Origin: Eledone cirrhosa
Lineage: Eukaryota
Assembly: GCA_964016885.1 (NCBI GenBank)
Contig: OZ024742.1
Location: 153,078,001 to 153,142,000 of the forward strand
Direction: 5' to 3'
DNA length: 64,000 bases
Every line of letters begins with the position of its first letter. The stretch's first letter is position 1. Shown here one piece after another: positions 1 through 55,937 of this stretch. Both the position numbers and the translations under genes were made by a program. The notes under the pieces are model-generated. The model did not search any database. It saw nothing but the letters and a program-made list of their open reading frames with translations, and had not been told where the DNA came from.

Positions 1-513
1 TGTATTCTAGTTTGTCGGTGTGGCCAGCCCGTTCTAATGCAGTGTTGTAATATTCAGCGTGTCGATCAAATGTGTTGGTTAGATGAGAGGCGGGATATTC
101 TAAGTGATATACTATGTGGCACGGACCTTATAATAGATAGTGGGTGGTTAGAGCTAGTGTGGATGTATGTGGGGTTCTCATTGTTTTTGTGAAAGGGTGT
201 GATAATTTGGGTGTTGAGGTTGAAGGTGGCATCTAGGAAGTTAACTACTTTGGTACTATATTCGTAGGTGATTTAAGGCCAAGGCTATCTAGGGTTCTTC
301 TAATGCTCTTACGGGTTCGCTCTATGTTTTGTTTATTCATGTTTTTAACTAATAGGAGAGCGTCATCTCTATATATTCCGCCTTGAAGGTAACTAAATTT
401 ATTATGTAAGGTGTGGGCTATGTATATACCAACATTATCCGTAACTTGTGCTGAATCATTAGCACCCATGGTTATGTCAAAGTTATCTATTCTATCCTTA
501 GAAGAACAATATA
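1..513 (-). mobile_element. Penelope-like element RT fragment (frameshifted, runs off the window start)
   Basis: Minus-strand translation FDITMGANDSAQVTDNVG...GGIYRDDALL...VNFLDATFN...SSNHPLSII aligns with the PLE RT at 13188-15326 (FDITMGSSDSAQITDLVG, GGLYRDD, VVNFLD, SNHP). Confidence 0.88.
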
Positions 514-2966
514 CGTAATCTCTTTAACCAACATAACCTAAAAATTGAATTTGATAATAGTATCAAACTAGCTAATTTCTTGGATGTATCTCTTAATCTT
601 GACACTGGTCTATATTACCCTTACCATAAAAACAATGAGAACCTTAATTATGTTAACTTTAAATCTAACCATCCTACCAATATCAAGAATGCTATAGTTA
701 ATAATATTGGAAATAGAATATCTAACATATCTTCTAATAAAACATCTTTGATGCTAACGCCAATTACTATAATAACGCACTTTCTAAAGCCGGCTATCCA
801 GATAAAATCAAATATAATAAAGAAACAAATTCTAGAAAAACTTACAGTAGAATAATTAATCATGACCATTCCAATAATTTTAATAAAAGACCTAGATACA
901 AAAACATAATCTGGTATAATGCTCCTTTACCCATCTCTATTAATAACAATATTCCTAAATTATTTTTTAGTGCCTTAAATAAATGCTTCCCTCCCTCACA
1001 TATCTATAGTAAAATATTTAACAAACACACCATCAAATTTTCGTATTCTACATCCTCCAATATTTCCAACATCATCTCTAAACACAACAACAAAATACTA
1101 AATACTAATTCTCTTCCTTCCAATATTGAATTTCATAATAACAGTAATAGTACTCCCGACGTCATTGTAAACCCTAGGCTAACTTCTGTAAATCCAAATA
1201 CAACGTCAAACACAACATCGCTAAATGTTCATAATCCAACTCTAAATCAAGAAACTATTATTCCTATTATTCCTATCGCAAACAACTTCTCCAATCCAAT
1301 TCCTTCTATAGATAACACTAGATCACCCATTAATAATCTCTCTAATTGCAACTGCCGCATTAAAAATAAATGTCCTCTCAACAACCATTGTCTCGATAAA
1401 AACTTAATTTATGAATGTAAAATTATAACTAGCACCAATTCCTTCACCTATTTTGGCTCCACTTCCACCTCTTTTAAAGCTCGTCTCTATAATCATCATT
1501 CATCTTTCAAATACAAACTTAAAAGAACTAACACTGCTCTCTCAGAACTCATATGGTCCTTAAAAGACAAAAACATTAAATATACCATCTTTTGGAAGAA
1601 GATTTCTTCTGCATCCTCATACTTGAACAGCTCTCTATCTAAAATCTGTAATCTCTGCCTAAATGAAAAAATTACCATTATCTCTAACCTAGATTCTATA
1701 ATAAATAGACGCTCAGATTTGTTTTCTATCTGCCTGCATAAATTCCATAGAACTTTTCACAAAGTATACAGTTAATATTCAATTCTTTATCAATTTAGAA
1801 TCTTTTCTCAAAGGCACATATACATACACTTCTTTAAAATATACCCATCTACCCTACTTTAAAGGGCATTATACACTCTATAATACTCGTTTACTCATTA
1901 CCCTCATTCTATCTTCTTGTAAAATCATAACATTTGTTTTGCCATTAGAATATTCATCCGCAATCATTATTATTTTTTCTCTCTATTATAAATCTTTTTA
2001 ATCTCAATTTCATCCTTAATTTATTATTATTTTTTTTCTCCCCATCAAAGAACTCATTATTAATACATATTAACTCTTTATTCGCATATATTATCAATTC
2101 AATCAATATACAAACTTTAACTTCACATTATTTTTCTCAAATCCTTCTACACACAAACCTTAACAATTTTTCTCTTCGCTAATTTTGAAATTGCCACAAT
2201 ACATACATTTCTTTTTTTGACGTTAGAATATTCACCCACAATTATTAATTTTTTCTCTCTATCTTCATACATAATTTCCCTTCGTTAATTTTCAAATTCC
2301 TTTAATTTATACATTATCTTCCAACGGTTCCCAACCTCTCTATATTAAAACAATATATCTTTTTCTCAGTCATAAAAACTATCTCTTTCTCTCTATCACC
2401 CATCTCTCCCTCTCCACCTTCACTCTCATCTCCTCCCCCTTTTTTTCATCCTTTCCACCCCCCCTCCCTAAATAAAATATTTTTTCCTCGCACATATCCT
2501 CCCTTCGTTAATTTTCAAAATGTTTAATTTATACAGTATCTTCCAACGGTTTTCAACCTCTCTATGTAAAAAATATATCTCCTCTCAGTTGTAAAAACTA
2601 TCTCTTTCTCTCTATCACCCATCTCTCCCTCTCATCTCCTTCTCTTTTCATCCCCCCCCCTCTCTAAATAAAATATTTTTCCCCATATCACACATCAATC
2701 TAAAACCACTTTTCATATGTTGATTTAAAACTGCACTATCCACAAGTGCTTTTTAGCCTTCATATCATGTTCTCCTGTTTTATCTGATGAAAACACAAAT
2801 ATTATTGCATGATGATGTCTGTTTTTGAAATGCGCATAATAAAATATATGGAACTCCTTTAACCATCTTTTGATCTTATATTATGCATACTCCAGTCCCA
2901 CAACTGTAGAGTGCTTCTTATCCGATATCTGCATTGCTTTATTGTACTACAATTAAACTCACCTCC

Positions 2967-6203: not shown

Positions 6204-6590
6204 ACATTTGATAATTATCAAATGTTTCATATATTTTCCATTCTAATAATTGTATTATCACAGGTTTTTCAATGATAAATATATAACTTATACAATTTTC
6301 TTTGTGCATTGAAATATTAATATATATATTTGTTTCTGCTTACAGTAAGTTATAGCTACAAACTAATTTCAAAAAAGTACATAGCATTTTTGGTTTACTC
6401 ACACTCAACTGCACAAACACAGATACCCCCCCCTCACACACACACATACTCTCCCCCTATCTATCTCCCTCTCTCTCTCACAATCTCTCACTCACACACA
6501 CACACACAATTATACGAGTAAAGAAAATTATTGGTTAACTCACGCACGCCCTCACAGACATACAATATATGTATATGTATATATATATAT

Positions 6591-6808
6591 CAAGTAGAGG
6601 GTCTGAAAAGTTCCTGGTTTTAAGAGATATGCGAAAGGCCAGGTAGGGGCGAACATTTCGAGTTATTTTTAAAGGGCTTAGAAAAACTGAAAGACCGCTG
6701 CAATGAGTGTGTGGATCTCAGAGGGGACTAAGTTGAATAAAATTATAATTAACAGATCCTTCTGTTTTTCATTTTACGCCAAGCCAGGAACTTTTCAGCA
6801 TCCCCTCG
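6591..6808 (+). mobile_element. Mariner-derived MITE in (TA)n
   Basis: TIR core ctgaaaagttcctgg / ccaggaacttttcag, right end ...cccctcg-TA; interior encodes a transposase C-terminal remnant KGLEKLKDRCNECVDLRGD*VE*. Confidence 0.85.
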
Positions 6809-7869: not shown

Positions 7870-7964
<95 letters not shown>

Positions 7965-8018
7965 TAAACAAATAATGAATAAAACAATGAAACAGTTCCT
8001 TATATTAAACAAAAAAAG

Positions 8019-8172
8019 TTCATTATTTAACGATCGTTTCTAGGATATATATGTGTTAGAATTGGCATGCATATTCAACAGATCTATGTACAAAATTATA
8101 CAAAATTATACAAACTATCAAGATTAAATATACATACCAACACATATATACGCCGTCTTCAGAAATAATGAA
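8019..8172 (-). ncRNA. Type I hammerhead ribozyme with long stem II (left-arm copy)
   Basis: Reverse complement of the motif at 19173-19326. Confidence 0.82.
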
Positions 8173-8795
8173 ATATATTTATTGATAATAACAACAATTC
8201 AAAATTTCAGGTCCGTTTGGGAACAAAATTGACCAATGAAAATACAAAAGGTTTTATGCAATTCGGTGTGTGTATATACATGCAACTACCCCGTACATAT
8301 ATTTACACAAAAATGTATGCTCAACATGCATACGCACACCAAAAAGATGCATGCAAATACAAAATTTCAAGGTTAATGTCTCTGTAAGTTTATAATGCAC
8401 AGATAAGATGCGTATAGACACATAAATATGAAATAAGTGTATACACATATTCTCATACTCACACATATCCGTACAATCACACACACGCGCGCGTATATGC
8501 ATTAACATACACATAATTACGAACATACATACACACACACACACCCCCACACACATATATATATGTGGATATAATATTATCATAAGCACATGGATATTAA
8601 TTCACTCACATAAACACTGCCACACACATTTAGATCAAGATACAGAAATTAGGTGGGAGGGGGGGAGAGGTCAGTATTCAACGGTTTGGGCAGACTGCTT
8701 ATTTATAGATGTATCTATAAACTAAGAAATAAAAAATAAAAATTAAAAAGGAAAGAAAAGAAAAAGAAAAAAGAAAAAAGAAATATATCAAGAAA

Positions 8796-8884
<89 letters not shown>

Positions 8885-8978
8885 CACATACACACATCTA
8901 CACTTAGAACATACATACACACACATATATAAACATATACATATACACACATACACACATATACACACATACATATAA

Positions 8979-9011
<33 letters not shown>

Positions 9012-9287
9012 TACACATATAATCACACATACATATATAGACACACATATATATACACATACACGCACATATACATACACATACATACTTATATACATAC
9101 AGATATATACATACATACCTATATATACACACAAATACATACAGACATACATACATACATACACACAAATACTTACGCATCCATATATCGGTATATACAT
9201 ACAAACACCTCTACACTCTCACGCAGCTCAGACATACAAAGAAAAAGGTATATACCTATACACATATACATATACAAATAGAGATAC

Positions 9288-9348
<61 letters not shown>

Positions 9349-9539
9349 CACATATACACACATATATATACATACACATACATACATGTACACACACATA
9401 CATATACATACATACACACATACACACATACATATATAGTCATACACACACATACACCTACACGAACATACATATACACATATATAAAGATATATATACA
9501 CACACACACATACACACTCACACATATATATAAAATAAA

Positions 9540-9579
<40 letters not shown>

Positions 9580-10475
9580 CACATATACATAGACATATAT
9601 GTACATACATACACATACATACATACATATACACACATATATATATATATATATACACACATAGACACATACATACATACACACACAACATACATAGATA
9701 CACATATATACTCATACATAGACATAGATATATATTTATACATACATACGCACTTACATATACTCATATATACAAATACATACGCATCCATATATGCGTA
9801 TATACATACAAACACCACTACACTCTCACACAACTCAGACATACAAAGAAAAAGGTATATACATATACATATATACACACATTAATAGAGATACATATAC
9901 ACATATATATATATATATACACATACATTTATATATATACACCCACACACACATAGAACCATAAACACACATACAAACACACACATACACACATATATAC
10001 ATACATATATATACACACACACAAAAAAAAAACACACATACACATATATATTTTTTACACATATATATACACATATATATACATATACACACCCTCACAT
10101 ATACACACATACACATAAGTTATATTATAATAATAAATAATATATATATATATATATATACACATACGAATATAGACATATATACACACATAGATATACA
10201 TATATATATACATATACACACACACACACACACACTCACATATATATGTGCGCACACGTACATATATACACATACACACATATACACATAAACACATACA
10301 TGTGCATACATGTACACACACACATATACCCACATAGATACGAAGATAGACATATATATAGAGAGACATACATATATATACACACATATATATATATATA
10401 CATACATACACACACATATATATATACATATATATATACACACACACATACACGCCCACACACATATACACATAT

Positions 10476-10510
<35 letters not shown>

Positions 10511-11233
10511 CACATATATATACACACATGCATATATACACATATATATATACATACATACACACATATGTATACACACACAATCTTACATTCTTATTTG
10601 CATGCGCATATATGTATTTTTATATTCAGATATAAATACCCAAACATATATACACCTACCTACATATATATTCATACATACACGCTTACAAACACAGATG
10701 ATAATAGTATGGGGGAAAGGGGGGGGTTGGAGAAGGGGATTATAGTAAATATATGTTTCAAGAAACATAGAATATTATCTGTATATGGATCCAATGTATG
10801 TTTTTACATAGTTTCAGTGTTAGGAAATACAAGAAATAAGGCAAAATTTATGCATTTCAAAATAATTATACCATTAATTATATGTTAACTAAACTAAAGA
10901 TAGTTAACATATTGATTTCTAAGGTGTAAATTAGTTAGGTTTATAATATTTGAAGCAGAATTTTGAAGTTAAATAGTAGTAGAGTATTAATTATAGTATA
11001 ACTAAATTAAAGTTATTAACGTTATGGTATCAATATTAGGAAATGAATTTAGTAATAGGGAAAAAACAAATAAAGTATTACATCGGTAGTAGAATATACA
11101 TTATAGGTTAACTAAATTAAAAATTATATATTAATTTCTATAGTATATGTTAATTAGGTATATAATAAATAAAACAGATATTTTATTTTATCAATAGCAG
11201 AATATAATTATATGCAAATAGAAATCAAAATTA

Positions 11234-11264
<31 letters not shown>

Positions 11265-11277
11265 CACATACATATAT

Positions 11278-11320
<43 letters not shown>

Positions 11321-11804
11321 TACACACATACACATACATATACATACATACATATACATATTTTTTCAAAAATTGCAAAGAATATATTAACTAGGTATAC
11401 ATCCAAAACACATCCCATTCTATGATTACATGACACTCTGCAATCCGTCTGTATAAGGATACTAATTTTAAGCCAATTGAATTAAATTTTTAGGTTGACT
11501 AAATTTAAAACCAAATTATAAATATATTTCTAAAATGTATATTAATTAGGTCTATAATACTAAAAATTATTTCTCTGTACTTGGATACACGATATTTTGT
11601 TATATTTTATCTGTAAAGGAATTTTAATAAAAGGTTTAAATAAATTAAAATTAATCTATAAATTAAATTACTAAGTATATATTAGTAATATTTAAAGGTT
11701 TTTCACAATTTATGATTACACAATATTTTATATTCTCATCTGTAGTAGAATTTTAATTAAATTAAATTTATAGGTTAACTAACATTTAAATTAAATTAAT
11801 TTCT

Positions 11805-11989
11805 AAAATAATTGTTTCTACTATTGGCACAAGGCCAGAAAATTATCCAGTACATTACTGGTACTTTATTTTATCGACCCCGTAAGGATGAAAGGCAAAG
11901 TTAACCTCGGCGGGATTTGAACTCAGAATGGCAAGGGCCGTAACTCTATGCGTCAAAGCATGGCGTCCGAACCTCTACCGATACTGCCA
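11805..11989 (-). mobile_element. Octopus-type tRNA SINE, young subfamily (in left arm)
   Basis: Near-identical to the copies at 15334 and 41576. Confidence 0.88.
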
Positions 11990-13231
11990 AATGTTATTAA
12001 TTAGGTTTATAATATTTAAATGTTTTTTTAGTTTATGATTACACGATATAATTAATTCCTGTCGTTTATTTAATAGGATATCCTTAGATTTCATTATTTC
12101 AAATAGTTCTTGGGAACATAATCTACATTCATTTCTATTATTTTGATAAGGGGTGGCTCTTTTGAGCACACTCCAGGTCAAATCATATTCTATATTCTTA
12201 TTTTTATAACTATTGATTTTTTCTGCTAGAGATGTTGTATTAGCCAGTGCCGCATTTTTAAAACTATGCTTGTGGGTATTAAACCTTGTCTTAAAATTGT
12301 TAGAGGTAGCTCCTATATATGAGCAAATAGAATCTTTAGTTTTAACATTACATTTATAGACTATGTTGTTAACAAGACAATTCCTTTTTAATGGGCAGTT
12401 TGCTTTGTTTCTACAGTTACAACCTTTCGTTAATTCTGTATTTGAGGAGATATTATGGTTAATTTGATGTACTGGTGGTATACTTATGGTTTTCTTACAT
12501 TTATATGCATTATAGGCACTTATATTTTGTTTTATGTTATTTGTTGTAGAGTATGAGAATTTAACTGTAGACCTATTTAAGATTTGATGGTATTTGTGGT
12601 TTGGCGGGAAGTTTTTCTCTAGGATATAAACATTTTTTTTAGCAATATTATCCTTAATTTGTAAATTAAATGGAGCATTATACCAAGTAACCTGTCTATT
12701 ACGGTTTCTATGTTGTTTATTATTTTTATTATTTTTATAGGTTGTATCGTGATGTTTACTAGGAGGATTAATGTTAATGATCTCACCACAACCATTTTTA
12801 GTTATATTTGTAGATTTAGGTGTTTTATCCTTTTTATTAGGAGTTTTATTATTAATATTTATTAGAGTTGTATGATGAGTAGTTTTTTGAGAGTTACTAT
12901 ATTTTATATTAGAAGATTTGGTATTTTGGGGTATAGTGTGGGTGGCATTTAGGTGTGTACTTTTCATTTGGTGTTTGTTGGTAATATTAGGTTGTATGCT
13001 TTTAGTATTTTTAGTAGAAGGTATATATTCTAATCTATTTTTGTGGCCACTTCTATCTAGAGCTTCGTTATAGAAGGTCGCATTTTTATCAAATACATCT
13101 TGGTTAGAAGAAAGGTTAGAAATTCTAAGTGATATATTATATGCAAGGTTTTTAAGGATAGATTTAGGGTGATTAGATTGTGACCTATTGGACCTAAAAA
13201 AGTCTAAAAAAATCCATGTCCACTCGGACAA
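11975..13231 (-). CDS. Chimeric RT-less ORF: 16 antisense-derived residues fused to the PLE thumb/linker/GIY-YIG (418 aa)
   Basis: From SQSNHPK onward nearly identical to the C-terminal part of ORF 13188-15326; the ATG comes from the antisense strand of the spacer; a 1-nt deletion shifts the stop into the SINE. Expression is unknown. Confidence 0.5.
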   Translation of the reverse strand: MSEWTWIFLDFFRSNRSQSNHPKSILKNLAYNISLRISNLSSNQDVFDKNATFYNEALDRSGHKNRLEYIPSTKNTKSIQPNITNKHQMKSTHLNATHTIPQNTKSSNIKYSNSQKTTHHTTLININNKTPNKKDKTPKSTNITKNGCGEIININPPSKHHDTTYKNNKNNKQHRNRNRQVTWYNAPFNLQIKDNIAKKNVYILEKNFPPNHKYHQILNRSTVKFSYSTTNNIKQNISAYNAYKCKKTISIPPVHQINHNISSNTELTKGCNCRNKANCPLKRNCLVNNIVYKCNVKTKDSICSYIGATSNNFKTRFNTHKHSFKNAALANTTSLAEKINSYKNKNIEYDLTWSVLKRATPYQNNRNECRLCSQELFEIMKSKDILLNKRQELIISCNHKLKKHLNIINLINNIWQYR

Positions 13232-15326
13232 AACTGGTAACTTGTATCATATGGATATTGAACATTATAATGAGTTCATATATAAAGAACTCAGAAAAAA
13301 TTATAAAAAATCTAATAATGCGTCACTCACCAACATCAACAACAAAACACACAACATAGTAAAAAAACTAAACATTGAAGATAGAACTGAACATTTGGCA
13401 TTGAAAAGACCACACTTCAACCTGAAGGATCATAAATCAAACTTTAACTCAAATCCTTCTATTAGACTTATATGTCCCTCCAAATCAGATATTGGAATAA
13501 TTAGCAAAAAAATTTTGGATAGAGTCATCCCACAAATAAGAAAACACGTTATTTTACCACTCTGGGAAAACACCTCCCAGGTAATTAACTGGTTTAAAAA
13601 TATTAGATGTAAATCTTCTGCTTCATTTCTACAATTTGATATAGATAATTACTATTCTTCTATATCACCTATACTCCTGAACAAAGCATTGATATTTGCT
13701 AAAAATAGATCTAACTTAACTTTGGATGACATTAATATTATTACACATGCTAGACTAACACTTATTGAATTTCAGAATGAATACTGGACCAGAAACACAT
13801 ATAGTAATCTATTTGATATTACTATGGGTTCAAGCGATTCCGCCCAAATTACTGATCTTGTGGGCCTCTTTCTCCTTTTCAACATAAATGCCTCCTTTCC
13901 CCACCTCAAAGGTGGTTTATATCGTGATGACTGTCTTCTTCTTTCTAACAACCTTAGCCTTTCAGAAATCGAAAAAAACAAAAAACATATTAGAACTTTC
14001 CTTAAAGACTATTATAATCTTCATATTACTTTTGAAAAAACAAGTAACGTAGTAAATTTCCTAGATATAACTTTAGATTTAGCTACGGGTATCTACCAAC
14101 CTTACCATAAACCAAACCAAAACTTACATTACATACACTCACAATCTAATCACCCTAAATCTATCCTTAAAAACCTTGCATATAATATATCACTTAGAAT
14201 TTCTAACCTTTCTTCTAACCAAGATGTATTTGATAAAAATGCGACCTTCTATAACGAAGCTCTAGATAGAAGTGGCCACAAAAATAGATTAGAATATATA
14301 CCTTCTACTAAAAATACTAAAAGCATACAACCTAATATTACCAACAAACACCAAATGAAAAGTACACACCTAAATGCCACCCACACTATACCCCAAAATA
14401 CCAAATCTTCTAATATAAAATATAGTAACTCTCAAAAAACTACTCATCATACAACTCTAATAAATATTAATAATAAAACTCCTAATAAAAAGGATAAAAC
14501 ACCTAAATCTACAAATATAACTAAAAATGGTTGTGGTGAGATCATTAACATTAATCCTCCTAGTAAACATCACGATACAACCTATAAAAATAATAAAAAT
14601 AATAAACAACATAGAAACCGTAATAGACGGGTTACTTGGTATAATGCTCCATTTAATTTACAAATTAAGGATAATATTGCTAAAAAATTTTTTTATATCC
14701 TAGAGAAAAACTTCCCGCCAAACCACAAATACCATCAAATCTTAAATAGGTCTACAGTTAAATTCTCATACTCTACAACAAATAACATAAAACAAAATAT
14801 AAGTGCCTATAATGCATATAAATGTAAGAAAACAATAAGTATACCACCAGTACATCAAATTAACCATAATATCTCCTCAAATACAGAATTAACGAAAGGT
14901 TGTAACTGTAGAAACAAAGCAAACTGCCCATTAAAAGGGAATTGTCTTGTTAACAACATAGTCTATAAATGTAATGTTAAAACTAAAGATTCTATTTGCT
15001 CATATATAGGAGCTACCTCTAACAATTTTAAGACAAGGTTTAATACCCACAAGCATAGTTTTAAAAATGCCGCACTGGCTAATACAACATCTCTAGCAGA
15101 AAAAATCAATAGTTATAAAAATAAGAATATAGAATATGATTTGACCTGGAGTGTGCTCAAAAGAGCCACCCCTTATCAAAATAATAGAAATGAATGTAGA
15201 TTATGTTCCCAAGAACTATTTGAAATAATGAAATCTAAGAATATCCTATTAAATAAACGACAGGAATTAATTATATCGTGTAATCATAAACTAAAAAAAA
15301 CATTTAAATATTATAAACCTAATTAA
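13188..15326 (+). CDS. PLE reverse transcriptase / GIY-YIG endonuclease (712 aa, N-terminally truncated, TTG start)
   Basis: SDKTGN, LKDHK, FDIDNYYSSI, ITMGSSDSAQITDL, GLYRDD, VVNFLD, CNCRNKANCPLKGNC, IVYKC...SYIGATSNNFKTRFNTH, CRLC. Confidence 0.93.
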   Translation: MDLKKSKKIHVHSDKTGNLYHMDIEHYNEFIYKELRKNYKKSNNASLTNINNKTHNIVKKLNIEDRTEHLALKRPHFNLKDHKSNFNSNPSIRLICPSKSDIGIISKKILDRVIPQIRKHVILPLWENTSQVINWFKNIRCKSSASFLQFDIDNYYSSISPILLNKALIFAKNRSNLTLDDINIITHARLTLIEFQNEYWTRNTYSNLFDITMGSSDSAQITDLVGLFLLFNINASFPHLKGGLYRDDCLLLSNNLSLSEIEKNKKHIRTFLKDYYNLHITFEKTSNVVNFLDITLDLATGIYQPYHKPNQNLHYIHSQSNHPKSILKNLAYNISLRISNLSSNQDVFDKNATFYNEALDRSGHKNRLEYIPSTKNTKSIQPNITNKHQMKSTHLNATHTIPQNTKSSNIKYSNSQKTTHHTTLININNKTPNKKDKTPKSTNITKNGCGEIININPPSKHHDTTYKNNKNNKQHRNRNRRVTWYNAPFNLQIKDNIAKKFFYILEKNFPPNHKYHQILNRSTVKFSYSTTNNIKQNISAYNAYKCKKTISIPPVHQINHNISSNTELTKGCNCRNKANCPLKGNCLVNNIVYKCNVKTKDSICSYIGATSNNFKTRFNTHKHSFKNAALANTTSLAEKINSYKNKNIEYDLTWSVLKRATPYQNNRNECRLCSQELFEIMKSKNILLNKRQELIISCNHKLKKTFKYYKPN

Positions 15327-15333
15327 TAACATT

Positions 15334-15517
15334 TGGCAGTATCGGTAGAGGTTCGGACGCCATGCTTTGACGCATAGAGTTACGGCCCTTGCCATTCTGA
15401 GTTCAAATCCCGCCGAGGTTAACTTTGCCTTTCATCCTTACGGGGTCGATAAAATAAAGTACCAGTAATGTACTGGATAATTTTCTGGCCTATTGCCAAT
15501 AGTAGAAACAATTATTT
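15334..15517 (+). mobile_element. Octopus-type tRNA SINE inserted just after the PLE stop codon
   Basis: A-box tggcagtatcggtagag, B-box gagttcaaatcc, conserved ctttcatccttacggggtcgataaaataaagtacc, tail agaaacaattattt. Confidence 0.9.
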
Positions 15518-16001
15518 AGAAATTAATTTAATTTAAATGTTAGTTAACCTATAAATTTAATTTAATTAAAATTCTACTACAGATGAGAATATAAAATATT
15601 GTGTAATCATAAATTGTGAAAAACCTTTAAATATTACTAATATATACTTAGTAATTTAATTTATAGATTAATTTTAATTTATTTAAACCTTTTATTAAAA
15701 TTCCTTTACAGATAAAATATAACAAAATATCGTGTATCCAAGTACAGAGAAATAATTTTTAGTATTATAGACCTAATTAATATACATTTTAGAAATATAT
15801 TTATAATTTGGTTTTAAATTTAGTCAACCTAAAAATTTAATTTAATTGGCTTAAAATTAGTATCCTTATACAGACGGATTGCAGAGTGTCATGTAATCAT
15901 AGAATGGGATGTGTTTTGGATGTATACCTAGTTAATATATTCTTTGCAATTTTTGAAAAAATATGTATATGTATGTATGTATATGTATGTGTATGTGTGT
16001 A

Positions 16002-16044
<43 letters not shown>

Positions 16045-16057
16045 ATATATGTATGTG

Positions 16058-16088
<31 letters not shown>

Positions 16089-17153
16089 TAATTTTGATTT
16101 CTATTTGCATATAATTATATTCTGCTATTGATAAAATAAAATATCTGTTTTATTTATTATATACCTAATTAACATATACTATAGAAATTAATATATAATT
16201 TTTAATTTAGTTAACCTATAATTTATATTCTACTACCGATGTAATACTTTATTTGTTTTTTCCCTATTACTAAATTCATTTCCTAATATTGATACCATAA
16301 CGTTAATAACTTTAATTTAGTTATACTATAATTAATACTCTACTACTATTTAACTTCAAAATTCTGCTTCAAATATTATAAACCTAACTAATTTACACCT
16401 TAGAAATCAATATGTTAACTATCTTTAGTTTAGTTAACATATAATTAATGGTATAATTATTTTGAAATGCATAAATTTTGCCTTATTTCTTGTATTTCCT
16501 AACACTGAAACTATGTAAAAACATACATTGGATCCAGATACAGATAATATTCTATGTTTCTTGAAACATATATTTACTATAATCCCCTTCTCCAACCCCC
16601 CCCCCTTTCCCCCATACTATTATCATCTGTGTTTGTAAGCGTGTATGTATGAATATATATGTAGGTAGGTGTATATATGTTTCGGTATTTATATCTGAAT
16701 ATAAAAATACATATATGAGCATGCAAATAAGAATGTAAGATTGTGTGTGTATACATATGTGTGTATGTATGTATATATATATGTGTATATATGCATGTGT
16801 GTATATATATGTGTATGTGTATATATATATATATATATATGTGTATATGTGTATATGTGTGTGGGCGTGTATGTGTGTGTGTATATATATATGTATATAT
16901 ATATGTGTGTGTATGTATGTATATATATATATATGTGTGTATATAAATGTATGTCTCTCTATATATATGTCTATCTTCGTATCTATGTGGGTATATGTGT
17001 GTGTGTACATGTATGCACATGTATGTGTTTATGTGTATATGTGTGTATGTGTATATATGTACGTGTGCGCACATATATATGTGAGTGTGTGTGTGTGTGT
17101 GTGTATATGTATATATATATGTATATCTATGTGTGTATATATGTCTATATTCG

Positions 17154-17194
<41 letters not shown>

Positions 17195-17751
17195 TATTAT
17201 TATAATATAACTTATGTGTATGTGTGTATATGTGAGGGTGTGTATATGTATATATATGTGTATATATATGTGTAAAAAATATATATGTGTATGTGTGTTT
17301 TTTTTTGTGTGTGTGTATATATATGTATGTATATATGTGTGTATGTGTGTGTTTGTATGTGTGTTTATGGTTCTATGTGTGTGTGGGTGTATATATATAA
17401 ATGTATGTGTATATATATATATATATATGTGTATATGTATCTCTATTAATGTGTGTATATATGTATATGTATATACCTTTTTCTTTGTATGTCTGAGTTG
17501 TGTGAGAGTGTAGTGGTGTTTGTATGTATATACGCATATATGGATGCGTATGTATTTGTATATATGAGTATATGTAAGTGCGTATGTATGTATAAATATA
17601 TATCTATGTCTATGTATGAGTATATATGTGTATCTATGTATGTTGTGTGTGTATGTATGTATGTGTCTATGTGTGTATATATATATATATATATGTGTGT
17701 ATATGTATGTATGTATGTGTATGTATGTACATATATGTCTATGTATATGTG

Positions 17752-17807
<56 letters not shown>

Positions 17808-17998
17808 TTTATTTTATATATATGTGTGAGTGTGTATGTGTGTGTGTGTATATATATCTTTATATATGTGTATATGTATGTTCGTGTAGGTGTATGTGTG
17901 TGTATGACTATATATGTATGTGTGTATGTGTGTATGTATGTATATGTATGTGTGTGTACATGTATGCATGTGTATGTATATATATGTGTGTATATGTG

Positions 17999-18061
<63 letters not shown>

Positions 18062-18337
18062 GTATCTCTATTTGTATATGTATATGTGTATAGGTATATA
18101 CCTTTTTCTTTGTATGTCTGAGCTGCGTGAGAGTGTAGAGGTGTTTGTATGTATATACCGATATATGGATGCGTAAGTATTTGTGTGTATGTATGTATGT
18201 ATGTCTGTATGTATTTGTGTGTATATATAGGTATGTATGTATATATCTGTATGTATATAAGTATGTATGTGTATGTATATGTGCGTGTATGTGTATATAT
18301 ATGTGTGTCAATATATGTATGTGTGATTATATGTGTA

Positions 18338-18380
<43 letters not shown>

Positions 18381-18468
18381 GTATGTGTGTATATGTGTAT
18401 ATGTGTGTATATGTATATGTTTATATATGTGTGTGTATGTATGTTCTAAGTGTAGATGTGTGTATGTG

Positions 18469-18558
<90 letters not shown>

Positions 18559-19172
18559 CTTGATATATTTCTTTTTTCTTTTTTCTTTTTCTTTTCTTTC
18601 CTTTTTAATTTTTATTTTTTATTTCTTAGTTTATAGATACATCTATAAATAAGCAGTCTGCCCAAACCGTTGAATACTGACCTCTCCCCCCCTCCCACCT
18701 AATTTCTGTATCTTGATCTAAATGTGTGTGGCAGTGTTTATGTGAGTGAATTAATATCCATGTGCTTATGATAATATTATATCCACATATATATATGTGT
18801 GTGGGGGTGTGTGTATGTATGTTCGTAATTATGTGTATGTTTATGCATATACGAGCGCGCGTGTGTGATTGTACGGATATGTGTGAGTATGAGAATATGT
18901 GTATACACTTATTTCATATTTATGTGTCTATACGCATCTTATCTGTGCATTATAAACTTACAGAGACATTAACCTTGAAATTTTGTATTTGCATGCATCT
19001 TTTTGGTGTGCGTATGCATGTTGAGCATACATTTTTGTGTAAATATATGTACGGGGTAGTTGCATGTATATACACACACCGAATTGCATAAAACCTTTTG
19101 TATTTTCATTGGTCAATTTTGTTCCCAAACGGACCTGAAATTTTGAATTGTTGTTATTATCAATAAATATAT

Positions 19173-19326
19173 TTCATTATTTCTGAAGACGGCGTATATA
19201 TGTGTTGGTATGTATATTTAATCTTGATAGTTTGTATAATTTTGTATAATTTTGTACATAGATCTGTTGAATATGCATGCCAATTCTAACACATATATAT
19301 CCTAGAAACGATCGTTAAATAATGAA
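19173..19326 (+). ncRNA. Type I hammerhead ribozyme with ~115-nt stem II extension
   Basis: ttcattattt-CTGAAGA-cggcgtatatatgtgttg...taacacatatatatccta-GAAA-cgatcg-TT-aaataatgaa: 10-bp stem I, palindromic stem III CGATCG, GUU site. Confidence 0.85.
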
Positions 19327-19520
19327 CTTTTTTTGTTTAATATAAGGAACTGTTTCATTGTTTTATTCATTATTTGTTTAATATTTTATCTTGACTCTGT
19401 ATACCGTTTATCTTTCACCGAAAGTGATTTTTCATTACATCTCTTCTTTCCATGATATCCGGAATACATTGAGTTCTTCATACGGATTGGACACTACCGT
19501 AAACTCTTGGTAGATTTATC

Positions 19521-19563
<43 letters not shown>

Positions 19564-19640
19564 AGCGTAAACCTCTTCAAATGAAGTCGATGTTTATTAC
19601 GGTATGTCGAATATATTTATCTATAAAACTGTTTATATTG

Positions 19641-19706
19641 TATTTTGTCTGATGAAGGCATAGCATATTGTTAATATGATATCCCCGAAATATATATAAT
19701 GAAATA
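19641..19706 (+). ncRNA. Type I hammerhead in a solo pLTR (~19558-19840) between (TA)n tracts
   Basis: tattttgt-CTGATGA-aggcatagcatattg/ttaatatgatatcccc-GAAA-tatata-TA-atgaaata. Confidence 0.8.
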
Positions 19707-19856
19707 AATATGGTTTTATAAATATAGTTTTCCATTTATTTAATATTGTAAATATACTCCAAATATTTGTCGAGTGCTTTTATATCAGTTATAAATATTT
19801 ACTAGTTGTAACCCAACAATTTTAAATATAACTTTACATGTATATATATATATATA

Positions 19857-20307: not shown

Positions 20308-23111
<2,804 letters not shown>

Positions 23112-23610: not shown

Positions 23611-23885
23611 TCAAATCTTCTTCTGGTACAGTTTGTATTTAGCGAAGGTTTTTAGAACCTTGTGTTGGCAATTAATTATTCTATCCTGTAGGGAATTTAG
23701 AAGGTCCTTTTCGATCGCTATTTCAATTACCTCCGCCAAACATTATTCTCTCCGGTATGGATTGGCGAATTTCAGCACGGAACATTGTAATGTGTATTGA
23801 ATATTAGCGCGCTTCAGATCCCAGATTCCTTGCGCCTGGGTCGTAGATCTAGCTAAACTGGGGATTTGAAACGTGTTTGAGGTGG
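23611..23885 (-). mobile_element. PLE GIY-YIG C-terminal fragment
   Basis: GIWDLKRANIQYTLQCSVLKFANPY...CLAEVIEI...LLNSLQDRIINCQHKVLKTFAKY aligns with the C-terminus of ORF 13188-15326. Confidence 0.78.
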
Positions 23886-25348
23886 CACCCACATATATAA
23901 ATATACGAAGTGAGTATCAGAATTAGTAAACTTATTAGAATAACTAAAAAGACCTGACATATAATGATACTCTCTCTCCACTTAGAAGACTTATATTTCA
24001 TCATAAATAGAACAAAATAAAGTTGATTTTTACCTCAGGAACAATCATGAACTTATTGGCTTTCATTTGAAATCATTTCACACATGTACATTTTTGCCAT
24101 AAATGATTAGAATATTTTCCGTCTTCAGTAATAAGTAATGTGCTTTCGAACCAAGAAAAACTGAACATGGCATTGCTGACATCTAGATGTGACTCTGAAA
24201 TCGGTATTAATTCAATAACTAACATATTAAAGAAAGAAATTCAGATTGATTAATATAATCCAAAATGCACCGTCTGAACAAAATATGGAATATTTATAAC
24301 CAGACATATTTGATATAAATCAGACATGATATTAATTCTGTCATTATATTCGCAGATGGATGTAATTCAAAATCCTTCTAGCTGTACGAAGGAGAAAATA
24401 TATCTTTATCAAATCACGCGCTACTACCTCAAAGAAAAACATAAAATGCTTGAATACATCATGGAATAATCTTGGAGAAAACTATTTGAATTCCACTAAT
24501 ATTTTAATGATAATCTCGTAAAGGATAGACATACTTCTAAAAACAGCAGAGACATCTTATTCAATCACATACTAATATGCACAAGATAGAAATACTCTTT
24601 GGATAATATTGACAGAAAAGTATGTTCCAATGAAATATTTAATAACACGACTGAAGCGTCTTTGATCATAGATAGGTTTTATAAGAGGTGTACTAGGATT
24701 AAAGAACGAGATCAATACACATACGACTTAAACAAACTATTAATGCAATTCATAAAAACAGTTATCTTTGTGTAAATTTAAATCTCAAGTTTAATAAATA
24801 GATATTCTGTAAAATATTCATAATAATATGACATTCTTGTATTATAAAAACGACTTCATTGTAGATGTTCTGAAAATTCGGATAGATAAGTGCTGAAGTA
24901 TAAAATACAAAAGCCCTCAAATCTAGCCGCGCGCAATGTATTTCTAACGAATTACATTTCTAATTCATCAAGGACAAGTATACTCAAACGAATATATCTG
25001 AAATATCTCAATATTCTTTTAGACATCGTTAGTATTTTGCCATATGATTTACACAGAAGCATCTCGGCACGATAGCCCTAGTCCTTCTAAATTTTCTCCA
25101 CTCACAGACACTGTGAAAGCGAGGTTCGGAGAACAGACAAAGGCAACCGCCCGCCAGCATTTGTGATGCAGCATTCTCACGTGATGCGAAAAGTTTATGA
25201 ATAGTCATTAGCTGTCAGACAAACCAATCCACATTGAATGTAAAAGTATTACCGACTGTACGACAATTTTTTTTCCTTCGTATCTCATAACTTCTGGCTC
25301 TCTGTCTGTCTGTCTGTTTGTCTCTCTCTCTCTCTCTCTCTCTCCCCC

Positions 25349-41331: not shown

Positions 41332-41575
41332 AGAGAGACATTCAGAAGGCTGTGAAGGACGAAGAAGGATGAGAATAAATCTCATATGTTTCATTGTATC
41401 GTTCAGTTTTAAATACGGATATACAACAGTCTAGTCTAATATATTAACTTAGTTTCTCCATGATCAACTAATTACATTCTTGCATTAGAAATATATGGAA
41501 AACCTGACGGGAATATCACTTAAATCTGTGCTTTTCATGTAGACGGTGTACCTGGAATATATTACAATGCCATTT

Positions 41576-41870
41576 TGGCAGTATCGGTAGAGGTTAGGAC
41601 GCCATGCTTTGACGCATAGAGTTACGGCCCTTGCCATTCTGAGTTCAAATCCCGCCGAGGTTAACTTTGCCTTTCATCCTTACGGGGTCGATAAAATAAA
41701 GTACCAGTAATGTACTGGGTAATTTTCTGGCCTTGTGCCAATAGTAGAAACAATTATTTTACCCTCCGTGGTTAAATTTGACTTTCATCCTTACGGGGTC
41801 GACAAAATAAAGTACCAATAATGCACTGGAATAATTGTTGGCCTTGTCCCCAAACTAGAAACAATTATTT
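41576..41870 (+). mobile_element. Octopus-type tRNA SINE, young copy (41576-41760) plus tandem duplication of its 3' half
   Basis: Near-identical to 15334-15517; ctttcatccttacggggtcga...agaaacaattatttt is repeated at ~41762-41870. Confidence 0.88.
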
Positions 41871-46879: not shown

Positions 46880-48960
46880 ATCACCAGAATACCGTTAACT
46901 TCACCTTTCGCAATAGAGACATATAAGCTGAAATCCAACCAATGCAATGCGGAATATATAGGGACGACACCCTATTTGCAGTCCACAATTGCATTAATCG
47001 AGGCATCCACTTTCTCAAAAAACAATTACATAAATCTTTTAAAAATAACGGCCTCTCTGTCACCATCGAACCGAACCATAAGGTAGTAAGCTTCCTGGAA
47101 GTTACCCTAGATCTTAACAATAACTTATATTACTCTTATCATAAACCAAGTGAAATACTTACATATATTATCCCACACTCTAACCACACACCGGCAGTCA
47201 TTAGAGCAGTAATTAAATCTATCTCTTATAGGATCTCCATGCTATCCGCTAATGAGGACATATTTATGAACCATGCGCCATATTATAATAAGGCCCTTTC
47301 TGAATCTGGTTATGAACAGTCCAATTATTACATACCTAAATGCCATAACACAGAACTTAACCACAACCATAATAATTTTAAAGTTAGAACTAGAAATACA
47401 ATAGCATGTAGCCAGATACGCCGGTATTTTAGCAGTAACAGCACCTAAACAGGGAACGGTAATGGTGGTAGAGGCTTACTTCCCACTCCTAGTAGCAGAC
47501 TCAGAATCAACCCTAGAATAGGAACCAGCAATGGGATAACAAATAATAAACGCCCAGGTAATAATAACCCTAAGAAAGCCCTTGCCAACTCCACTAGTAC
47601 TCCTAGAAGAAATAGGCCTAGAAATATCACCTGGCTTAAACCCCTTTCTCATATTATTTAGCCACTAATATCCCTAAACGCTACTTCTCTATCGCGCCCC
47701 CTAATCATAGATACTACAAACTCTTTAATAAAAAACAACATTAAAATCTCATTCTCCACAACACCTAACCTAGCTAGCCACATCGCATTCAGTAACCATC
47801 ATAAACTAAGACAGTATAACTCCCACACCGCGGTACTACTACCCCACTCAAATACACCACGCCTCTACACAAATACTTACTCTAGTAGCATACATCCCCC
47901 ATCTAATCCTTCTAGCACACACCAGCCGCATAGTTTAAACAACCCTAACCTTATTAGCCGCAGCAGTAATTGCAATTGCCGCTACCCTAACGCATTCCCA
48001 CTAAACGGACAATGCCTTACACCCAATATAGTATATACGGGCACTGCATCACACACTAGCTCCTATATTGGCTCTACCTCGAACCCTTTTAAGGTACGCA
48101 CTATTTTTCCTTCCGTGACCCTAGCAATAGATGTTCAATATCTCTAGCTAGACTCGTTAAAAACCTTAAATTAACCAAAACTGAACACTCAATAAAATGG
48201 GATATCTCAGCTAGAGTCCAAGCATTCAATGGACGAAGAAACTGTTGTGATCTCTGTGTTACCGAGGTCTATTACATAACTCTATCACAACCACAACCTA
48301 TAAACGATAGAAACGAGACAAGTATTAGGTGTCAACATCGAAGGACAAATTCCTTCGTCAATAGAACATTTGACGCAACATAATCATATAATCTCAACTT
48401 TACATATAGCTAACAATGACTTGGATAATTATAAGTTACCTCCCCAACACTATCTCTCACTTAAGCTCTAGAGCATTTCTTAGCTATAAATAATCTAAAT
48501 TTCTAAATTCTCAAGGAGTTAATTCCCTTGAAACCTGTCTCTAATTAGTAAGGTAAATATCTCCAGGCGGCCATATTGTTATGCATAGGCAAACATCGCT
48601 TAATACAGCCTTGACAGATAAATAATGCTTGCCTATAACAGAAATTAAATAGATCCAAAACACCGTCGTGAAATACCAATATATGGAACATTACATTCAT
48701 GTAACCTTCTATCTTTACTTACTTTATATTTCTTATTCCATGGTATATTTATCAATATTTGTATTATCCTTTGAAGTTCTGAAGAGCGCTCCATTTTTTA
48801 CCTAAGTTACTTATCTTCATTTGAACCAGATCAATAATGATCTATAATCAATTGATCCAGAAACATTATATGGAGTAGCGAACCAATTGTAAACGGACAT
48901 TATTATTATCATCATTAACATTCCTTACATTAAACTATAATTACACTCCTTATTATTATA
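46880..48960 (+). mobile_element. Degenerate 5'-truncated PLE with hammerhead-like motif at 48776-48894
   Basis: GIYRDD, VVSFLEVTLDL, SNHT, CNCRYP...GQC, SYIGSTS, CDLCVTE; gtt-CTGAAGA-gcgctccat...atggagtagc-GAAC-caattg-TA-aac. Confidence 0.87.
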
Positions 48961-49085: not shown

Positions 49086-52000
49086 TCAGATATTCAGGAC
49101 GTATCGGAGGGTTCTTGCCGTTCCAAGCAAGCATGCCTTTTGAAGCGTTCCAAAAAGCGTGAAGGGGCCGATTTTCTTTAACCATCCCTGGAAACCTTTG
49201 GAGATAGTCCCCAGTGCGCCTATGACAATCGGGATCACTTTGACTTCATGGCAGTTCCAAATCCTTTTCACCTCCCACTTTAGGTCCTGGTATCGGTTAA
49301 TTTTCTCCCTCTCCTTCTCTTGCACTCTCGTGTCGAACGGGCAGGCCACATCCACAATCAGGCACGATCTTTTTTCTTTGTCCACAACCACCAGGTCAGG
49401 TCTATTGTGTTCCAGTTTTTTGTCCGTCTGTATCCTAAAATCCCACAGCACCTTCACCTGATTGTTCTCCATCACCGCCTCTGGCCTATGCTCATACCAT
49501 TTCTCAGAATGTGGTAGATTGTTTACTTTGCACAGGTGCCAGTGGATCACCCTGCCCATCACATCGTGTCTCCAGCCCTTATAGTGGGTCTGGGCTAGGT
49601 GTTTACACTCGGATACAATGTGAGCCACAGTCTCCTCTCTCTCTCCACAGATCCTGCACAGTGGGCTAGCCTCCTCCTTGTAGATATGGTGCTTCAACCA
49701 CTTCGTTTTGAGGGCCTGCTCCTGCGCAGCCATTAGCATTCCTTCTGTAGCCTTTTTGAGGTCTCCTCTTCTCAACCAGTTCCATGTCTGTGGATCTCTA
49801 AATTCAGTTTTCTCAAAGAAGGTACTATGAAGGGATTTTCCCTTAAGGCTGCTCTTCCTCCTTGATGTTATTTCCTCCTTGGGTATCCCCTGGCCTACTG
49901 TCCCCTCCTTCAGTACAGCTCTGAGCATTGGCTCCTTACTATAGGTCACGTATTTGTATAGGTTGTTTTTCTCCATCTGAACACAGTCCTCTATGCTGAT
50001 AAGACCTCTTCCACCCTCAGATCTCCTTAGGTAGAGTCTATCGACATCACTCCTCTTGTGGAACATGTTGTAGATAGTCAATAGCTTCCTAGTCTTCCTA
50101 TCCATTTCTTTTTGTTCAGCAACATTCCATCTCAGAATTCCCGCACTGTACCTAATAATAGACACAGCTCGGGAATTTACTGCGCTTATGGCATTTCTGC
50201 TGTTCAGATGTGACTTCAATACGCTCCTTACTCTCCGAATGTATTCAGTTCTTAACAATTCCTTCATTTTTTTGTTCTTTATGCCATCAGCCTCCAGAAC
50301 GCCCAAATACTTGTATCCTTCCTCAGAGTCAATTTCCTTTATCATCTCACCTGTTGGTATCTGGATCCCGTTACTTCTGCTCAACCTACCCCTCCTCATC
50401 ACAATGACTCCACATTTACCAATACCAAACTGCATACATATATCACTGCTGAAAATACGGACAGTGTCAACAAGCACATCCAACTCCTTCTCACTTTTCC
50501 CGAAGAGCTTAAGATCGTCCATGAAGAGGAGGTGATTGATGGTAAGCTCTCCCCTTCCCAACTTGTATCCTGCTCTCACTTTTCGCAGCATAATGGTCAA
50601 GGGCATCAGGGCAAGGACAAACAACAGAGGGGACAGGCTATCTCCCTGGAAGATACCTCTCTTGATCTTCACGCTTCCCAAGGATACTCCAGTTGATGTC
50701 AACTCTGTCTCCCAGGACCCCATACTCCTGCCCAGCAACTGTCTGATGTTATCTGCCACCCTGAAGATCTCCAGGCTTTTGGTGATCCAGGAATGAGGCA
50801 CCATGTCAAATGCCTTTCTGTAGTCTATCCATCCCATGGCAAGATCAGTGTGTCTCCTCCTGCAATTCCCCATTACCATCTTATCAATAAGCAACTGGTC
50901 CTTTGTACCACGTGACTTCTTTCGGCATCCTTTCTGTTCGTCCGGCAACAAGTTGTTTGTGTGGAGGTGATGGTAGATTTCCTCACACACAATGCTCGTC
51001 AACAGTTTCCACATTACGGGCAGACATGTGATAGGTCTATAGTTGGTAACATCATTACCCTTGATTCGGTCTTTCATTATCAGAACTGTGGTACCTTTTG
51101 TCAACCACTCTGGCACCTCACCCGACACCAAGCAGTCATTGAACATGGCCGTCAGCTTCGGGTGGAGGGATGTTAAATGTTTAATCCAATACCCCTGCAC
51201 ACCATCTGGGCCTGGTGATTTCCAGTTGGTTAGTTTTTTGGCTTGCCCCTTAAGAGTTTCAACTGTGATACTCAAATCAGTCTGTTGCTGTGCCTGCTCA
51301 CCGATCTCCCTCTGTACTGTCTCAATCCACCCTGCCTGGGCATTGTGTCTAACATCCTGCTCCCATATTCCTCTCCAGAATGTTTTAGCTTGTTCCGCCC
51401 CAGGGATCAAGTCGTTGCCTCTTTCTTTCCCCTCAAGCTGTCCAAACAGCATCTTCTGGTTGTTGTCGAACATGCGGTTCTGTTTATACTGACTGACTCT
51501 GTTCTCGTATCGCCTGATTTTGGCACTCTTTGCTACAATGCGTTGCTTCAATTCCTCTATGATAATATTTAGCTTTTTACTCCTAGTTTTGTATTTTATT
51601 TCCAGTCTATTTTTAGTGCCTATGTTTTTTAGTGTCCCATTCAGTAGTGACTCAAGCTTTCCTATGTCATTTCTCATTTCCCCGATTTGCCCACTCAATC
51701 GCTTCTTCCACCACGGCTCTGCTCTTTCTTGTCTGTTGTTTCCTCTCGCTTTTATACCAAGTAGTTTCCTCACCGTATTTGCTGTTGCTTCGAGGATATT
51801 GTTGCACTGGTGAAGACTCCTCGCCTCAAGGTATGGGATGACTTTGTTTACCTTAGCTGTTGTTTCTTTTAACTTTTTCCTGTCTACAAATCTTAGGTTC
51901 ATAGGTCTCCCACTATCATTGTTCAACTCATCTACCACTAAATTTAGGATGTCAACCGAATCTTGTCCTAGCCCGTCAGCATTCATCTCCTCAGTGGCCG

Positions 52001-53857: not shown

Positions 53858-53917
<60 letters not shown>

Positions 53918-53918
<1 letters not shown>

Positions 53919-55920: not shown

Positions 55921-55937
55921 TTATTATTATTATAATC

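What the first reader, a model, noticed from the sequence alone, without database searches (positions are those of the whole stretch)
7956..19389. 11.4-kb palindrome made by one Penelope-like insertion, with a ribozyme near each outer end
Seen: near-identical 5.2-kb arms (7956-13183 and 14139-19389) around a 955-bp spacer holding the RT core. Both arms carry the endonuclease region, a SINE, ~4 kb of UTR and a hammerhead whose site lies 73 nt inside the arm end. The arms differ at several codons (RQV/RRV, KNV/KFF, KRN/KGN, SKD/SKN) and in microsatellite lengths. Known: PLEs often carry an inverted 3' segment at the 5' end, usually pLTR-sized. Inferred: fold-back or second-priming synthesis on an unusually large scale. 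Read-through transcription could form ~5 kb of dsRNA, a substrate for ADAR editing or small-RNA production.
Basis: partly seen in the sequence, partly recalled or inferred. Interest (0 to 1): 0.75.

Follow-up and report, generated by a model that had tools for sequence, protein, structure and literature searches.

The report
Twin-armed Hydra Penelope insertion, one donor
This 11.6-kb palindrome is one insertion of a young, abundant Penelope-like jumping gene whose sampled copies often lie head to head, and four marks found only in its two arms suggest that both halves were likely copied from one donor in one event, a clue to how this class inserts.

Summary
The palindrome is real in the assembly: arms 98.5% alike around a 955-bp spacer. 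The insertion runs on to about 19526, because the right arm alone carries a ~137-nt 'tail'. It is a Hydra-clade Penelope-like element (PLE) with a 6.66-kb unit, inserted in (TA)n. The size is not unusual here: 16 outward pairs among the first 100 of 1,484 endonuclease-motif matches suggest about 240 such giants. In 52 of 54 inverted loci one arm ends at a fixed short site and the other at a fixed long site. Particular to this locus: a SINE insertion, a 2-nt swap, a small deletion and a 3' haplotype each occur exactly twice in the 3-Gb assembly, once per arm. Both arms therefore share one template history. Best reading: both strands of the target primed copying of one donor's RNA, and the two cDNAs were joined head to head. 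Fold-back with later central deletion, and arm-to-arm conversion, remain open. No independent read spans the junction; no RNA data. The scan reached the two-primer reading before, on shorter palindromes in this genome.

The parts
7870..7955 (.). (TA)n microsatellite, left half of the target site (start approximate)
   Evidence: sequence; all classified ends of the family abut TA-rich repeat
7956..13183 (-). Left arm: 5'-truncated inverted copy, unit positions 6664 to 1544, ending at the family's fixed short end (no tail)
8021..8170 (-). Hammerhead-like motif, left arm; predicted cut near 8029; activity untested
   Evidence: mirror of the right copy
11813..11989 (-). SINE insertion, left copy; 100% identical to two SINE copies elsewhere; 3-bp ATT duplication
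12023..13183 (-). ORF remnant (thumb region, linker, CxCx5C, endonuclease) with a 1-bp deletion near its end
13183..13184 (.). Central head-to-head junction, blunt: no overlap and no added bases (unit 1544 joined to unit 589)
13184..14138 (+). Unpaired 955-bp spacer: the RT core, part of the right (longer) copy
13184..15326 (+). Open but 5'-truncated RT-endonuclease ORF of a Hydra-clade PLE; lacks about the first 100 of 813 codons
   Evidence: motifs compared by eye with Hydra-1_Obim
15334..15510 (+). SINE insertion, right copy, sense to the ORF, just after the stop codon; this junction occurs only in the two arms genome-wide
15327..19389 (+). About 3.9-kb microsatellite-rich 3' region, an intrinsic part of the 6.66-kb unit; holds the private marks at 15742-15743, near 16450 and at 19047-19087
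19175..19324 (+). Hammerhead-like motif, right arm; predicted cut after 19316; activity untested
19390..19526 (+).
19527..19557 (.). (TA)n microsatellite, right half of the target site

Best explanation
This is a single insertion of a Hydra-clade Penelope-like retroelement in a (TA)n repeat, likely made when both strands of the cut target each primed reverse transcription of RNA from one donor copy, one at the short end site and one at the long end site ~137 nt further on, after which the two 5'-truncated cDNAs were likely joined head to head. Shown: family, unit, target, the two fixed ends, their strict pairing, the sister relation of arms, and four marks private to this locus and present in both arms. 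Inferred: that the marks, including the SINE, were already in a donor that is absent from this assembly; that priming was on both strands; that the centre was closed by end joining. Not resolved: one RNA molecule read twice (the trailing RT would displace the leading cDNA) or two RNAs of the same donor. The arms are long only because the family carries ~3.9 kb of 3' sequence before its end sites.
For: Ends: 52 of 54 outward end pairs are short/long, 1 short/short, 1 long/long; the ends meet TA-rich repeat. Orientation: of 39 neighbour pairs within 15 kb among the first 100 of 6,716 hammerhead-motif matches, 32 face outward and 2 inward. One template: arm-to-arm distance is below the median distance to other copies in 32 of 33 pairs, and no sampled copy is closer in 24 of 33, this locus included (0.33% against ~2.4%). 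In the ORF the arms share 247 subfamily variants and disagree at 16 (19 pairs, one locus counted twice). Four marks have 2 exact matches each in 3.0 Gb, both in this locus; 29 of 29 other copies lack the SINE. Against simple fold-back: the short-end arm reaches further 5' in 12 of 23 long loci, and in 10 of these it has no tail for the other arm to copy. For donor origin of the marks: none lies in the 1,148 ORF sites of the arms, where arm-private changes (5, 0.22% per arm) match the unpaired spacer (2 in 887, 0.23%); the SINE copies have diverged like the rest of the arms; four other long loci keep an apparent foreign insert in one arm only (4 of 37). Biochemistry: an anole PLE protein cleaves and extends both target strands and starts RT at two adjacent internal sites that match the genomic tail ends (PMC11167929).
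Against: The donor with the SINE is not in the assembly, so its existence is inferred. The ORF-versus-3'-region contrast in shared marks is weak (0 against 5 SNP events plus SINE and deletion; P about 0.06-0.13, my own arithmetic). Shared-private ORF changes across loci (12 non-synonymous, 5 synonymous) do not separate donor origin from conversion. In vitro both strands used both start sites alike, which does not by itself explain the strict pairing. In this locus the tailed arm is the longer one, so fold-back is not excluded here. A perfect fold-back followed by deletion at the centre would also make either arm the longer. The in-register test on tandem loci was inconclusive. No independent read bridges 13183/13184.
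Confidence: 0.6

Rival explanations
1. Fold-back: one cDNA primed at the long end snaps back and copies itself, the copy is cut or stopped at the fixed short end and joined to the target, and later deletions at the unstable centre make the spacer.
For: Explains all shared marks with no second template. Fits this locus (the tailed arm is longer). Several stubs have perfect centres with a 2-nt self-complementary overlap at unit 6451-6453. Self-priming was proposed in PMC3846280 (passages), and endonuclease resolution of the tail in PMC8557442 (passages).
Against: Needs an extra central deletion in at least 10 of 23 long loci, and in loci whose tailed arm is only 50-120 nt of tail with no overlap to the other arm (L039, L062, L063, L082, L099). 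The two tail ends are RT start sites in vitro, and both strands are extended. The junction here is blunt, with no inverted microhomology.
Confidence: 0.2
2. The two arms were inserted together, but the shared private marks, including the SINE, arose later in one arm and were copied to the other by arm-to-arm gene conversion.
For: All four marks tested are unique to this locus, and no donor or sibling carries them. Arm-private changes are fewer per site in the 3' region (5-7 in 2,313 sites) than in the ORF (5 in 1,148).
Against: Shared marks and arm differences interleave, and one difference lies inside the SINE. There are no shared marks in the ORF part, where arm and spacer rates match. One-arm inserts persist in 4 of 37 long loci, while a both-arm SINE occurs in 1 of 37.
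Confidence: 0.15
3. Assembly artefact from fold-back reads or a mis-joined second haplotype.
For: Long palindromes are a known assembly hazard (recalled; PMC8557442 passage notes assembly problems for PLE inverted structures). No independent read bridges the junction.
Against: 22 plain substitutions between the arms. The inversion stops exactly at two different element ends and leaves out the flanks. The same short/long rule holds at 52 of 54 loci. The spacer is 955 bp of single-copy sequence.
Confidence: 0.03
4. Two independent insertions into the same (TA)n hot spot.
For: (TA)n tracts here do collect nested PLE insertions (right flank 19563-19850; L080).
Against: No TA at the junction, the orientation bias is 32 to 2, ends pair strictly, and private marks are shared.
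Confidence: 0.02

Closest known systems
Hydra clade of Penelope-like elements (PMC8557442; Hydra-1_Obim, Penelope-13_HM)
   Same: One ORF with C-terminal endonuclease, DKT, CxCx5C linker, CxxC and CxH motifs, CUGAAGA hammerhead core (as listed for Hydra-1_Obim), (TA)n target; Penelope-13_HM is annotated with a 966-nt inverted 5'-truncated copy.
   Different: Unit 6.66 kb against generally under 3 kb; ~3.9-kb microsatellite-rich 3' region; 115-nt stem II; RWR for RWK; arms of about 5 kb; tandem arrays of whole units.
Canonical EN+ PLE insertion with inverted 5'-truncated copy and one-sided tail (PMC8557442 Fig. 2 legend; PMC3846280)
   Same: Head-to-head inverted copy next to the 5' end, tail on one end only, partial tandems.
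   Different: Tail ~137 nt against 30-40 nt; arms of kilobases against pLTR size; the strict pairing of end types and the single-template origin are counted here and are not stated in the passages read.
Anole Poseidon PAc in vitro system (PMC11167929)
   Same: Both target strands nicked and extended; two internal RT start sites that define the tail; AT-rich target; predicted dimer.
   Different: Other clade; start sites lie ~7-40 nt apart inside the ORF start; the paper does not explain inverted arms and saw no strand difference in start site.
LINE-1 twin priming (recalled, not from a call)
   Same: Both ends of the cut target prime cDNA on one RNA; the centre is closed by microhomology joining.
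   Different: L1 twin priming inverts a 5' part without duplicating it, from a variable second site; here the second site is fixed and both arms hold the same 3' sequence.

Membership tests
Hydra-clade PLE | Single ORF, RT followed by a C-terminal GIY-YIG endonuclease | tested here: met
   813-codon ORF in intact copies; RT and endonuclease blocks match the printed Hydra-1_Obim rows by eye. Pfam, PDB sequences and a single-sequence fold gave no independent support.
Hydra-clade PLE | DKG modified to DKT | tested here: met
   HSDKTGNLY (definition)
Hydra-clade PLE | N-terminal RWK motif | tested here: inconclusive
   RVRWRAY in intact copies: a conservative variant; the region is lost in this truncated copy
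Hydra-clade PLE | Linker CxCx5C; CxxC and CxH around the conserved E and N; no CCHH | tested here: met
   CNCRNKANC; CRLCSQE...NKRQELIISCNH; absence of CCHH judged by eye
Hydra-clade PLE | Hammerhead motif near the 3' end | tested here: met
   Motif present in both arms and in 139 sampled copies that pass the pattern; not found by Rfam; cleavage not tested
Hydra-clade PLE | Insertion into (TA)n | tested here: met
   Both flanks here, and TA-rich flanks at the classified ends of 54 pairs
Hydra-clade PLE | Generally short (under 3 kb); descriptive, not a strict criterion | tested here: not met
   Unit 6,643-6,662 bp in a tandem array
Hydra-clade PLE | Placement in the Hydra clade of an RT tree | not tested
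   Reference proteins were seen only in a paper's supplement; no tree was built
EN+ PLE inverted insertion | Inverted 5'-truncated copy adjacent to the 5' end, tail on one end | tested here: met
Active hammerhead ribozyme | Self-cleavage at the UH site | not testable with these tools
   Core letters intact, but the core-proximal stem II pair is C/A with an extra U in nearly all copies

The most novel reading that the evidence does not exclude
A PLE dimer reads one RNA molecule twice: both target strands prime at two fixed sites, and the trailing RT, which has no RNase H (recalled), displaces the leading cDNA, so nearly every insertion is born as a palindrome. With several such families active, these insertions would be a main source of the exceptional long-dsRNA potential and hyper-editing reported for octopus (PMC5625713); this one family already puts at least 0.11% of a 70-Mb sample into paired arms.
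Probability: 0.25. Interest if true: 0.75.

Novelty: new variant of a known kind. Interest (0 to 1): 0.46.

Why it matters
How PLEs make their inverted copies is described as still undefined (PMC8557442). Short stubs cannot show whether the two arms come from one template; 5-kb arms with private marks can. This genome holds an estimated 240 palindromes with the endonuclease region in both arms from this one family, so one-template versus two-template, priming versus fold-back, and conversion become testable with population long reads. It also shows that multi-kilobase, near-perfect palindromes persist by the hundreds in an animal genome. If they are transcribed, they are a candidate source of octopus hyper-editing substrates, which the passages read in PMC5625713 explain for the frog but not for the octopus. 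The locus itself is one typical, well-marked example, not a singular object.

Tried and rejected
Rfam: only microsatellite-driven miRNA noise, no hammerhead. Pfam on the 717-aa ORF: 0 families; PDB sequences: nothing significant; AlphaFold without an alignment: pLDDT 33, unusable, so no fold search. A Pfam scan of a full-length copy and an Atlas search gave no result. Sequencing runs: no RNA holder listed. Contigs and RAD reads of 7 of the 22 listed runs hold the family but run on as ordinary copies at 13183/13184 and differ by several percent; none bridges the junction; they are other individuals or relatives, so no verdict. In-register test on tandem loci (is the lone arm closer to the outer unit?): of 12 cases, L151 5:0, L071 3:1, L104 and L137 near even, L142 4:18 (a nested locus), 7 without informative sites; inconclusive. 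An empty target site could not be found: the left flank is unique among the fetched loci and the right flank is another repeat. 'SINE is part of the family' rejected. 'SINE captured by template switch' is not needed: it has an ATT duplication, and its 5' truncation point recurs in other SINE copies. 'Stub ends are ribozyme cuts' rejected for this family: 36 of 110 5' ends fall at unit 6445-6460, the 5' side of stem I, ~140 nt before the predicted cut. Four paper searches listed no paper that counts paired end types or tests single-template origin of PLE arms; subscription papers and the preprint's supplements were not visible, so older Drosophila Penelope work may say more.
Full report
Observation. 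The arms differ by 28 mismatches (22 outside microsatellite register shifts) and 12 indels. One correction matters: element sequence continues past 19389 to 19524-19526 on the right only, then meets (TA)n; the left arm meets (TA)n at 7956. The insertion is about 11.57 kb, with a one-sided tail of ~137 nt.

What the element is. The spacer has at least 40 near-identical copies in the genome (40 of 3,100 candidates scored). A tandem array on C6 gives the unit: 6,643-6,662 bp, an 813-codon ORF at unit 290-2728, ~3.9 kb of microsatellite-rich 3' sequence, and the hammerhead motif at unit 6450-6600. The protein has DKT, CxCx5C, CxxC and CxH, the marks of the Hydra clade (PMC8557442 section 11), and its RT blocks match the printed Hydra-1_Obim rows by eye (supplement rows). 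The Hydra label came as a lead from earlier scan notes and was checked here by motif only; no tree was built. The host is likely an octopus, inferred from that likeness and those notes. The family is longer than the described members (generally under 3 kb).

How common the structure is. A 27-nt hammerhead motif has 6,716 exact matches. Among the first 100 (70 Mb of C1), 39 neighbours lie within 15 kb: 32 outward, 2 inward, 5 in the same direction; 13 outward pairs span at least 4.4 kb and 4 at least 9.5 kb, against 11.3 kb here. An endonuclease motif has 1,484 matches; the first 100 hold 16 outward pairs and no inward pair within 10 kb, which extrapolates to about 240 palindromes with that region in both arms (one chromosome end sampled, so rough). 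Fetched examples of 10-13 kb include L071, L103, L109, L111, L133, L135, L147 and L149. The locus is typical of its family.

End rule. All 61 clusters of the first sample and 22 chosen groups (this locus included) were classified by motif. Of 54 outward end pairs found, 52 join a short end (unit 6664) to a long end (unit 6801), 1 is short/short and 1 long/long; 34 of the 61 unbiased clusters hold such a pair, and the rest show one end only within the stretch fetched or miss the motif. Central junctions show 0-4 nt of overlap in 28 of 55 cases; the other 27 show added bases, some clearly templated from nearby, others only poor alignment to a diverged subfamily (L060 and L154 counted twice). The junction here is blunt.

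One template. Arms are closer to each other than to the median other copy in 32 of 33 pairs (exception L111), and no sampled copy is closer in 24 of 33. In the ORF, arms share 247 subfamily variants (142 synonymous, 96 not, 9 gap sites) and disagree at 16; arm-private changes look neutral (30 non-synonymous or stop, 8 synonymous). At this locus the SINE is missing from 29 of 29 other copies. It is a young element with 99-100% identical copies elsewhere, inserted with a 3-bp ATT duplication; the label tRNA-type SINE rests on box-like motifs seen by eye. Its junction, a 2-nt swap, a small deletion and a 3' SNP haplotype each give exactly 2 exact matches in the assembly, one per arm (4 of 4 patterns tried). 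So the arms share one history: one donor, a self-copy, or later conversion.

Choosing among these. Fold-back requires the shorter arm to be a copy of the longer. In 23 long single-junction loci the short-end arm reaches further 5' in 12 and the long-end arm in 11; in 10 the longer arm has no tail to give. Fold-back survives only with an added central deletion; it is not excluded at this locus, where the tailed arm is the longer. Conversion predicts shared marks spread like arm differences; here there are none in 1,148 ORF sites against 5 SNP events, the SINE and a deletion in the 3' region, and ORF arm differences (0.22% per arm) equal the spacer's private rate (0.23%). That is weak evidence (P about 0.06-0.13). 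Four of 37 long loci keep an apparent foreign insert in one arm only. The missing donor and the lower arm divergence in the 3' region count in favour of conversion. An in-register test was inconclusive. The anole PLE protein nicks and extends both strands and starts at two sites that match the tail ends (PMC11167929, parts 1-2 of 4 read), which fits two-strand priming, though in vitro the strands did not differ in start site. I put two-strand priming from one donor at 0.6, fold-back 0.2, conversion of the marks 0.15, artefact 0.03, independent insertions 0.02. My two-primer reading was written down before the look-up; several earlier notes on shorter palindromes in this genome say the same, which is not independent support. 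A word search of the notes for shared-SINE, single-template arms found nothing.

Ribozyme and dsRNA. The motif folds well (z -6.8) and recurs in 139 sampled copies that pass the pattern, but the pair next to the core is C/A and Rfam does not score it. The common stub end at unit 6451 is not the predicted cut; earlier notes read such ends as the RNA start, which I did not test. A transcript across the locus would pair over 5 kb; none was found or excluded. This family alone places at least 76,924 bp of 70.17 Mb (0.11%, including one nested palindrome of another family) in paired arms. PMC5625713 (passages) reports an exceptional long-dsRNA potential (4.4e-3, another measure and species) and hyper-editing in Octopus bimaculoides. 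The link is inference.

Literature seen. PMC8557442: passages, section 11, supplement rows. PMC11167929: parts 1-2 of 4. PMC3846280: passages. PMC5625713: passages. bioRxiv 10.64898/2026.07.22.740005: passages, supplements not seen. Inverted 5'-truncated copies and tails are known; the largest inverted piece seen in these texts is 966 nt. Searches listed no paper with the end-pairing count or a single-template test.

Verdict. A real, family-typical PLE insertion of a known kind at a larger scale, with private marks that make it a useful test case for an open mechanism. Interest 0.46.

Noticed in passing
window 2-481 (-) and 502-1757 (+): A second, diverged Hydra-like PLE, also head to head, at the window's start; its protein resembles the family nested in L080.
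   Followed up: partly
window 20593-22028 (+), 23632-23895 (-), 46918-48356 (+): Further decayed Hydra-like PLE ORFs, 30-49% identical to the focal protein.
   Followed up: no
window 19563-19850: The right flank is a stub of another very young repeat family (at least 40 copies at 99-100%), many with a shorter inverted partner: the same two-end pattern.
   Followed up: partly
L080 2525-11155 (G000:C1, about 54.093-54.101 Mb): An 8.6-kb palindromic insertion of a second PLE family (4-kb arms, 99.1%) nested inside an insertion of the focal family.
   Followed up: partly
G000:C6:49524893-49566392 (L104-L108): One 41.5-kb insertion: five whole tandem units plus a partial one on the short-end side and a 5.5-kb inverted arm on the long-end side.
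   Followed up: partly
L154-L156 (G000:C4, about 191.71-191.73 Mb): The same inverted insertion with an identical central junction appears twice, 12 kb apart: local duplication or assembly duplication.
   Followed up: no
unit positions 577-602 (window 13184 = unit 589): A weaker cluster of 5' truncation points (this locus, L077, L109, L137, L149, L157, L165); partly biased by how loci were found.
   Followed up: no
window 15492-15493: The 2-nt change in the right SINE copy turns a near-palindrome into a perfect small hairpin, as a template-switch mutation would.
   Followed up: no
L034, L047, L149, L159 central junctions: Added bases that repeat nearby sequence, like the templated insertions of polymerase-theta end joining (likeness recalled).
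   Followed up: no
window 41574-41761 (-): Another copy of the same young SINE, 98.9% identical and truncated at the same 5' point.
   Followed up: partly
window 49086-52511 (-), 54062-55423 (-), 58314-59435 (+); repeat 53881-55921 / 61989-63979: LINE-type ORFs (RVT_1, zf-RVT, Exo_endo_phos) and a 2-kb direct repeat at 93%.
   Followed up: no
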